The notes under the pieces: generated by a model | Told to the model about the DNA's origin: nothing | Seen by the model: the letters and a program-made list of their open reading frames with translations, nothing else | The model's database searches: none | Program-made: the position numbers and the translations under genes | Shown: in pieces, positions 52,694 through 52,900 of the stretch | Position numbering within the stretch: position 1 is the stretch's first letter | How the letters are laid out: the number at the start of each line of letters is the position of its first letter | NCBI RefSeq assembly: GCF_053078305.1 | Contig: NZ_CP166879.1 | DNA length: 64,000 bases | Reading direction: 5' to 3' (one strand)

Positions 52694-52900
52694 GTTGCAC
52701 TCTCTCACATTTTTTGCGGTTGCACCTTTCAAAAATGTTAACTGCCGCAGAGAAAAAGTCTGAGTTATTTTTTTAATCCCTGTCATATCGATTTCTTTTA
52801 TTAACATTTCATTCATTTTTAAGCTTGCTACGCAAGTCACATTTAACATGGTTGCACAAAGTTGCAACATCATGGATATTTCACGATAACGTTAAGTTGC
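52694..52900. promoter_or_regulatory. put control region with five GTTGCA motifs (candidate PutA operator sites)
   Basis: GTTGCA at 52694, 52719, 52851, 52861 (palindromic gttgcaac) and 52895, read directly; PutA binding to GTTGCA in the put intergenic region is established. Confidence 0.6.

What the first reader, a model, noticed from the sequence alone, without database searches (positions are those of the whole stretch)
52694..52900. Five GTTGCA motifs in the putP-putA control region
The divergent put intergenic region carries GTTGCA at 52694, 52719, 52851, 52861 (palindromic GTTGCAAC) and 52895, consistent with the operator set bound by the PutA ribbon-helix-helix domain. This is a clean example of autoregulatory architecture, conserved here.
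Basis: partly seen in the sequence, partly recalled or inferred. Interest (0 to 1): 0.2.

Follow-up and report, generated by a model that had tools for sequence, protein, structure and literature searches.

The report
Known PutA operators in put control region
The five GTTGCA motifs are real and are the already characterised binding sites where the E. coli proline enzyme PutA switches off its own gene and the proline transporter gene, so this is a textbook control region and not a new one.

Summary
The fourth copy is the palindrome GTTGCAAC. All five lie in the 422-bp spacer between divergent putP (50997..52505, minus) and putA (52928..56890, plus).

The rest of the 64-kb window holds only 25 copies on both strands, so about 0.17 are expected in the spacer (P about 1e-6).

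The spacer is 420/422 identical to E. coli K-12 MG1655, and neither difference touches a motif. [quoted passage not shown] The sequence cGGTTGCACc read by PutA in crystal structure 2rbf occurs once in the window, at the second motif.

Comparison of 78 Enterobacteriaceae species adds one point. The two operator pairs O1/O2 (25 bp apart) and O3/O4 (10 bp apart) are essentially invariant. The fifth site, O5, is exact only in E. coli and three other Escherichia representatives. Other lineages have no fifth site or place one elsewhere.

Interest is low.

The parts
50997..52505 (-). putP, sodium/proline symporter, 502 aa
   Evidence: ORF. Pfam SSF, E=2e-149. Annotated as putP in an E. coli genome whose spacer is identical.
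52506..52927 (.). put control region, the 422-bp divergent putP-putA spacer
   Evidence: 420/422 identical to K-12 MG1655. Present at >=80% coverage in 5412 of 5426 complete E. coli genomes.
52694..52699 (+). Operator O1, GTTGCA (extended GGTTGCAC at 52693-52700)
   Evidence: Exact match. GGTTGCAC present in 78/78 species. Lies 25 bp from O2 in 77/78 species.
52719..52724 (+). Operator O2, GTTGCA (extended cGGTTGCACc at 52717-52726), the sequence crystallised with the PutA RHH domain
   Evidence: Exact match. The only CGGTTGCACC in the window, equal to the 2rbf readout consensus in PMC4655474. (G/A)GTTGCAC in 78/78 species.
52851..52856 (+). Operator O3, GTTGCA (extended GGTTGCAC at 52850-52857); overlaps the candidate putA -35 hexamer
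   Evidence: Exact match. Present in 77/78 species; E. whittamii has GGTTGCGC.
52861..52868 (.). Operator O4, GTTGCA within the palindrome GTTGCAAC (extended AGTTGCAA)
   Evidence: Matches on both strands. AGTTGCAA in 78/78 species, always 10 bp after O3.
52896..52901 (+). Operator O5, GTTGCA (extended AGTTGCAC), 32 nt before the putA ATG; specific to part of the genus Escherichia
   Evidence: Exact match. Exact in only 5 of 78 loci: two E. coli, two unnamed Escherichia sp., and E. whittamii. Column conservation is 10-30%.
52852..52880 (+). Candidate putA core promoter: TTGCAC (52852-52857), 17-bp spacer, GATATT (52875-52880). Inferred, not mapped here.
   Evidence: The GATA(T/G)T hexamer sits at a fixed distance after O3 in 78/78 species. 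One search printed the spacer as 18 because of an off-by-one in my formula; counting on the sequence gives 17. The block is >=95% conserved. The generic promoter scan did not call it.
52928..56890 (+). putA, trifunctional repressor / proline dehydrogenase / P5C dehydrogenase, 1320 aa. Codons 1-52 (52928-53083) encode the ribbon-helix-helix DNA-binding domain.
   Evidence: Pfam PutA_1st, PRODH, Pro_dh-DNA_bdg, Pro_dh and Aldedh. PDB 2gpe, 2rbf and 2ay0 matched at E about 1e-31. Residues 1-61 are 100% identical to K-12.
52599..52642 (-). Published putP transcription starts transferred from K-12: P1 at -137 (52642) and P4 at -94/-95 (52599/52600). P5 at -13 (52518) lies outside this span.
   Evidence: PMC2760140 and a supplement of PMC3415461. 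Coordinates transferred through the alignment.
52664..52690 (-). ymdG small upstream ORF, 8 aa (MKNSVAEH) as annotated in K-12. Its ATG starts 4 nt after O1 on the putP strand. The originally reported 40-aa form corresponds to 52664..52786 and contains O1 and O2.
   Evidence: K-12 annotation b4737. The 40-aa form and its epitope-tag detection are in PMC6001520. Listed as a candidate uORF of putP in PMC7815308.
52826..52831 (-). Degenerate site TGCTAC, one mismatch from TGCAAC, at the position where E. albertii, Salmonella and Kluyvera carry an exact inverted GTTGCA
   Evidence: Ten species have TGCAAC 25 bp upstream of O3.

Best explanation
This is the E. coli put control region, and the five GTTGCA hexamers are the five known operators of the autorepressor PutA.

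Mechanism from established knowledge: when proline is scarce, a PutA dimer inserts the two-stranded beta-sheet of its N-terminal RHH domain into the major groove at each (G/A)GTTGCA(C/A) site. When proline is present it reduces PutA's FAD, PutA moves to the membrane to act as an enzyme, and both genes are derepressed.

Inferred here: O3 overlaps the -35 hexamer of the putA promoter, O4 lies in its spacer, and O5 lies just downstream of the predicted start. Together these three would shut off putA. O1 and O2 lie about 55 and 80 bp upstream of the putP P1 start and control putP.

Shown here: the location, number, exact sequence and non-random clustering of the sites, their identity with K-12, the intact cognate RHH domain, and deep conservation of O1-O4. 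Taken from the literature: binding itself, the putA/putP division of labour and the redox switch.
For: - **Motif positions and statistics:**
- **Gene identities:**
- **K-12 comparison:** 420/422 identity across the spacer with all motifs in register. The RHH domain is identical to K-12 and matches PDB 2rbf, 2gpe and 2ay0.
- **Crystallised site:** the 2rbf readout consensus cGGTTGCACc (PMC4655474) is found uniquely at O2.
- **Binding in K-12:** gSELEX shows PutA binds only the putA/putP spacer (PMC8249747).
- **Repressor role and proline-driven switching:** PMC5293562 and PMC5879082.
- **Phylogenetic footprint of 78 species:** O1, O2, O3 and O4 with their G/C flanks and their 25-bp and 10-bp spacings are essentially invariant, while the surrounding spacer is poorly conserved.
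- **Species-wide presence:** the spacer is present in 5412 of 5426 complete E. coli genomes.
Against: - Nothing contradicts the assignment.
- The primary paper (Zhou et al. 2008, PMC2665032) and related Becker/Tanner papers are not held. The operator numbering, the 3+2 division of labour and the affinity differences are therefore cited from memory.
- The putA transcription start was not retrieved, so the overlap of O3-O5 with the promoter is inferred from conserved hexamers that the generic promoter scan did not call.
- O1 and O2 lie upstream of the three retrieved putP starts (-137, -95, -13). How they repress putP is therefore not explained by simple occlusion of those promoters.
- O5 is not conserved outside part of Escherichia, so conservation cannot support its function.
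- The 78 loci were recovered with peptide patterns that include the DNA-contacting strand TMGVKLDD, which biases the sample towards species with an E. coli-like RHH domain.
Confidence: 0.97

Rival explanations
1. The GTTGCA copies are mainly -35-like promoter hexamers (TTGCA resembles TTGACA) serving the several putP promoters and the putA promoter, not repressor sites.
For: TTGCAC of O3 sits exactly 17 bp before a conserved GATATT (spacer counted on the sequence). Five putP transcription starts have been reported (PMC2760140).
Against: Conservation extends to the 5' G(G) and the 3' C (GGTTGCAC in 78/78, 74/78 and 77/78 species for O1, O2 and O3). These positions are PutA readout bases (PMC4655474) and are not part of a -35 element. 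O1 and O2 are on the wrong strand and at the wrong distance for the retrieved putP starts. O4 and O5 lie in the spacer and downstream of the candidate putA promoter. A dual role for O3 as operator and -35 hexamer is compatible with the main explanation.
Confidence: 0.02
2. The motifs are targets of another regulator of the put spacer, such as ArcA or CRP, and their match to the PutA consensus is incidental.
For: ArcA-P footprints the putP P1 promoter and represses putA and putP (PMC3798270). A conserved block at 52630-52660 contains TGTTAA-like repeats.
Against: The TGTTAA-like repeats in that block do not resemble GTTGCA, and the block is separate from the five sites. The PutA-DNA crystal structure reads GGTTGCAC. 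gSELEX with purified PutA alone selects this spacer.
Confidence: 0.01
3. The cluster is a chance accumulation of a short hexamer in an AT-rich spacer.
For: Six-base motifs recur often. One or two chance copies per spacer are plausible: the Markov expectation is 0.38.
Against: Poisson P is about 1e-6 to 1e-8, and 2 of 20,000 simulations reached five copies. Four sites are invariant in position and sequence across 78 species.
Confidence: 0.001

Closest known systems
E. coli K-12 put control region with PutA operators 1-5 (Zhou et al. 2008, J Mol Biol 381:174; PDB 2rbf)
   Same: Orthologous DNA at 420/422 identity. The same five GTTGCA sites are in the same columns, the flanking genes are the same, and the RHH domain is identical.
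   Different: Two single-base differences at 52835 and 52908 (A here, T in K-12), both outside the hexamers and outside the 8-bp readout sequence. The second lies 7 nt after O5.
Salmonella enterica put control region (PutA autorepressor; Hahn et al. 1988, Ostrovsky de Spicer and Maloy)
   Same: Divergent putP-putA genes. O1/O2 and O3/O4 are identical in sequence and spacing, and the candidate -10 sits at the same distance.
   Different: There is no site at the O5 position. Instead an inverted TGCAAC lies 25 bp upstream of O3 (-105 from the ATG), where E. coli has TGCTAC.
Pseudomonas putida PutA RHH domain and its operators (PDB 2jxg, 2jxh, 2jxi)
   Same: A homologous RHH domain, matched at E=2e-20. 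From memory, it also recognises GTTGCA.
   Different: A more distant protein. Its control region was not examined here.
Other ribbon-helix-helix repressors (MetJ, Arc, CopG, NikR)
   Same: A beta-sheet in the major groove reads short repeated sites that overlap promoters.
   Different: Those proteins typically bind adjacent repeats cooperatively as dimers of dimers. PutA is described as binding as a single dimer per site (PMC2777438), and its RHH is fused to a 1320-aa enzyme whose membrane association relieves repression.

Membership tests
E. coli put control region / PutA operator set | Lies between divergently transcribed putA and putP | tested here: met
   putP 50997..52505 (-) and putA 52928..56890 (+); Pfam SSF and PutA domains.
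E. coli put control region / PutA operator set | DNA orthologous to the K-12 put control DNA, with motifs in the same positions | tested here: met
   420/422 identity, with no change in any motif.
E. coli put control region / PutA operator set | Five sites, each containing 5'-GTTGCA-3' | tested here: met
   Five + strand copies in the spacer. Enrichment P is about 1e-6.
E. coli put control region / PutA operator set | Contains the operator-2 sequence read by the RHH domain in the crystal structure (cGGTTGCACc) | tested here: met
   Unique match at 52717-52726. Consensus taken from PMC4655474.
E. coli put control region / PutA operator set | Cognate trifunctional PutA with an N-terminal RHH domain encoded next to the sites | tested here: met
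   PF21775 PutA RHH, E=1e-21. PDB 2rbf and 2gpe matches. 61/61 residues identical to K-12.
E. coli put control region / PutA operator set | PutA physically binds these sites and represses putA and putP, with relief by proline | not testable with these tools
   Literature for K-12 only: gSELEX gives a single peak at the putA/putP spacer (PMC8249747); repressor switching is described in PMC5293562.
E. coli put control region / PutA operator set | Sites conserved in relatives that carry an RHH-containing PutA | tested here: inconclusive
   O1-O4 are invariant in 77-78 of 78 species. O5 is exact in only 5 Escherichia loci.
Cooperative RHH operator arrays (Arc/MetJ/CopG type) | Adjacent repeats bound cooperatively by a dimer of dimers | not testable with these tools
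   O3 and O4 are 10 bp apart in 78/78 species, which would allow contacts on the same face of the helix. PutA is reported to act as a single dimer (PMC2777438). I do not file this region under that type.

The most novel reading that the evidence does not exclude
The fifth PutA operator may be evolutionarily labile. O5, just downstream of the predicted putA start, may be an innovation found in only part of Escherichia. Its 13-nt identity with O2 (GTTGCACCTTTCA) suggests either copying from O2 or selection for the same high-affinity flank. It may have replaced an ancestral inverted site 25 bp upstream of O3, which survives in E. albertii, Salmonella and Kluyvera and is decayed to TGCTAC in E. 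coli. If so, E. coli autoregulates putA with a different operator geometry from its relatives. In addition, O1 abuts the start codon of the Escherichia-specific uORF ymdG, so PutA could gate a long putP leader transcript.
Probability: 0.4. Interest if true: 0.25.

Novelty: already known. Interest (0 to 1): 0.08.

Why it matters
It matters little as a discovery. The put control region and its five GTTGCA operators are a characterised example of a 'trigger enzyme' that couples metabolism to transcription. Confirming them here shows only that the window is ordinary E. coli chromosome with an intact put regulon.

The comparative result has minor value for people modelling PutA regulation or transferring operator annotations between enterobacteria. 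It separates an invariant four-site core with fixed spacings from a fifth site that varies between lineages.

Tried and rejected
- **Primary literature.** I tried to read Zhou et al. 2008 (PMID 18586269, PMC2665032) and related papers (PMC2664619, PMC3715380, PMC2242416, PMC2666929, PMC1390768). None is held.
- **Full-text searches.** The first search for PutA + GTTGCA + operator mostly returned 'putative' matches. The RegulonDB 7.0 paper had no whole-word hit.
- **putA transcription start.** I looked for a mapped start in TSS datasets. Supplements of PMC2760140 and PMC3415461 list only putP starts. Thomason et al. 2015 is not held.
- **Generic sigma-70 scan.** It found only one weak minus-strand site (52690..52661) and no putA promoter. 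It is too strict for this promoter, so I took it as uninformative and not as negative evidence.
- **69-aa PGAP 'hypothetical protein' (52664..52873, minus).** I considered whether it could be a real gene that would explain motif conservation. It has no Pfam match and its middle is poorly conserved, so I rejected this.
- **Technical failures.** A first translation of putA from 52929 was out of frame; the true ATG is 52928.

Full report
**Observation**

An exact search of the 64-kb window finds GTTGCA on the + strand at 52694, 52719, 52851, 52861 and 52896. There is also a minus-strand copy at 52863, because 52861-52868 is the palindrome GTTGCAAC. Everything else is as described.

The five sites lie in the 422-bp spacer 52506-52927. 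On one side is a 502-aa minus-strand ORF of the sodium:solute symporter family (putP, 50997..52505). On the other is a 1320-aa plus-strand ORF with the PutA RHH, PRODH N-terminal, Pro_dh-DNA_bdg, Pro_dh and Aldedh domains (putA, ATG at 52928).

**Chance**

Outside the spacer the hexamer occurs 25 times on both strands in 63.6 kb, so 0.17 copies are expected in 422 bp. Poisson P is 9e-7 for five or more and 2.5e-8 for six or more. A first-order Markov model built from the AT-rich spacer itself expects 0.38 copies, and 2 of 20,000 simulated spacers reached five. The hexamer is under-represented in the window overall, at 31 observed against 51.7 in shuffles. The 8-mer GGTTGCAC occurs three times in the window, all of them here.

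**Identity**

The spacer is found in 5412 of 5426 complete E. coli genomes at 95% identity or better and at least 80% coverage, and it is 100% identical in strain 2014C-4587. Against K-12 MG1655 it is 420/422 identical with no gaps. The two differences, at 52835 and 52908 (A here, T in K-12), fall outside every hexamer and outside the 8-bp readout sequence.

The first 61 residues of PutA, which include the ribbon-helix-helix domain, are identical to K-12. They match the PDB chains of that domain: 2gpe, 2ay0 and the DNA complex 2rbf, at E about 1e-31.

A held paper tabulates the bases read in 2rbf as cGGTTGCACc (PMC4655474). That 10-mer occurs once in the window, at 52717-52726, the second motif. 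This fixes the operator numbering as running from the putP side: O1 52694, O2 52719, O3 52851, O4 52861, O5 52896.

**What is known**

Held papers state three things:

- Trifunctional PutA represses putA and putP through its RHH domain and switches to a membrane-bound enzyme when proline reduces its flavin (PMC5293562; PMC5879082).
- In a genomic SELEX screen, purified PutA selects only the putA/putP spacer of the K-12 genome (PMC8249747).
- PutA appears to bind DNA as a single RHH dimer (PMC2777438).

The paper that defined the five operators is not held, so I cite it from memory of its abstract (Zhou et al. 2008, J Mol Biol 381:174):

- Five sites, each containing GTTGCA, were found by gel shift.
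- Three sites are needed for putA repression and two for putP repression.
- The 2.25-Å structure on operator 2 shows contacts to the hexamer plus three flanking base pairs.
- Putting operator-4 flanks into operator 2 lowers affinity about 15-fold.

That last point fits the sequence here. O1, O2 and O3 read GGTTGCAC, O5 reads AGTTGCAC and O4 reads AGTTGCAA.

**Anatomy and inferred mechanism**

TTGCAC inside O3 (52852-52857) is followed after exactly 17 bp by GATATT (52875-52880). I take this pair as the putA -35 and -10 hexamers. On that reading O3 covers the -35, O4 lies in the spacer, the start falls near 52887, and O5 lies about 10 nt downstream of the start. This matches the reported requirement of three sites for putA repression. 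It remains an inference: I retrieved no mapped putA start, and the generic promoter scan did not call this promoter.

For putP, published starts lie at -137, -95/-94 and -13 from the ATG, which correspond to 52642, 52599/52600 and 52518 (PMC2760140; PMC3415461 supplement). O1 and O2 are centred about 55 and 80 bp upstream of the P1 start. Simple occlusion of those core promoters therefore does not explain repression through O1 and O2.

Five putP starts have been reported, and the two I could not retrieve may lie further upstream. The K-12 small ORF ymdG starts 4 nt after O1 on the putP strand and was detected by chromosomal tagging. That implies a transcript which begins upstream of or within the O1/O2 pair and runs towards putP. 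PutA at O1/O2 could block its promoter or its elongation. This step is inferred and untested.

**Comparative evidence**

A scan of one genome per species with PutA residues 1-200 returned 80 loci from Escherichia, Salmonella, Citrobacter, Klebsiella, Raoultella, Enterobacter, Kluyvera, Buttiauxella and other genera. Of these, 78 include the start of putP.

| Feature | Species showing it (of 78) |
|---|---|
| O1 reads GGTTGCAC | 78 |
| O2 reads (G/A)GTTGCAC | 78 |
| O1-O2 spacing of 25 bp | 77 |
| O3 reads GGTTGCAC | 77 (E. whittamii has GGTTGCGC) |
| O4 reads AGTTGCAA | 78 |
| O3-O4 spacing of 10 bp | 78 |
| GATA(T/G)T hexamer at a fixed distance after O3 | 78 |

The script printed the promoter spacer as 18 because of an off-by-one in my formula; counting on the sequence gives 17.

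In the column-by-column profile, these blocks are at least 95% conserved while much of the surrounding spacer is far less conserved.

O5 behaves differently. It is exact in only five loci, all Escherichia: two E. coli, two unnamed Escherichia sp., and E. whittamii. Its columns are 10-30% conserved. Among the other species:

- 53 have only the four core sites.
- 10 (E. albertii, two Salmonella subspecies, Kluyvera and others) carry an inverted TGCAAC 25 bp upstream of O3, where E. coli reads TGCTAC (52826-52831).
- 4 carry a forward site 27 bp upstream of O3.
- 5 carry an inverted site 34 bp downstream of O3.
- 1 has a single extra inverted site far upstream of O3.

The sample is biased towards E. 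coli-like RHH domains, because one of the search peptides was the DNA-contacting strand TMGVKLDD.

**Rivals**

Chance is excluded. A pure promoter-hexamer reading fails because the conserved positions include PutA readout bases outside any -35 element, and because O1, O2, O4 and O5 are not placed as -35 elements. ArcA does bind this spacer (PMC3798270), but the TGTTAA-like repeats it would plausibly use lie in a separate conserved block at 52630-52660.

**Verdict**

The only addition is the distinction between an invariant four-operator core and a fifth operator that varies between lineages. That is a modest comparative note and needs binding assays to mean anything.

Noticed in passing
window 52896-52901 and 52826-52831; loci L004-L083: The fifth PutA operator is not conserved. 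O5 is exact in only 5 Escherichia loci. Ten species (E. albertii, Salmonella, Kluyvera and others) instead have an inverted TGCAAC 25 bp upstream of O3, where E. coli has TGCTAC. Fifty-three species have only four sites. This looks like binding-site turnover.
   Followed up: yes
window 52719-52731 and 52896-52908: O2 and O5 share a 13-nt identity, GTTGCACCTTTCA (12 nt in K-12, which has T at 52908). This is more than the hexamer requires. O5 may derive from O2, or both may be selected for the same flank.
   Followed up: no
window 52664-52690 (minus); 40-aa form 52664-52786: The K-12 small ORF ymdG (MKNSVAEH) starts 4 nt after O1 on the putP strand. The originally reported 40-aa form contains O1 and O2 in its coding sequence. 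The short ORF with this start is conserved only in Escherichia: only 11 of 78 species have any ATG within about 10 nt after O1.
   Followed up: partly
window 52664-52873 (minus): RefSeq/PGAP annotates a 69-aa 'hypothetical protein' (WP_000979516.1) in the same frame as ymdG, spanning O1-O4. It has no Pfam match and its middle is poorly conserved, so it is probably a spurious call.
   Followed up: partly
window 49505-50848 (+): A 447-aa ORF next to the 3' end of putP has no significant Pfam match. It is present in only 645 of 5426 complete E. coli genomes, at 90-99% identity, so it is an accessory gene of unknown function.
   Followed up: partly
window 52630-52660: A strongly conserved block reads GGTGTGTTAAATCGATTGTGAA on the putP strand and lies around the putP P1/P4 promoters. 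It contains TGTTAA-like direct repeats, and ArcA-P is reported to footprint putP P1.
   Followed up: no
window about 52550 and about 52956: K-12 3'-end mapping (PMC7815308 supplements) lists an RNA 3' end 45 nt upstream of the putP ATG, flagged as uORF-associated, and a strong 3' end 28 nt inside putA. These suggest short leader transcripts on both sides of the control region.
   Followed up: no
L049, L053, L064, L069, L074: In K. oxytoca, Cedecea sulfonylureivorans, Raoultella terrigena, Enterobacter sp. 10-1 and an uncultured Buttiauxella sp., the O3/O4 promoter core lies 129-210 nt from the putA ATG instead of about 77 nt. This implies insertions in the putA leader.
   Followed up: no
hit H12 (NZ_CM169479.1): A few E. 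coli genomes (8 of 5420 with a match) hold less than 80% of the spacer. Strain EC22 matches only the putA-proximal 153 bp, so O1/O2 and perhaps putP are disrupted there.
   Followed up: no
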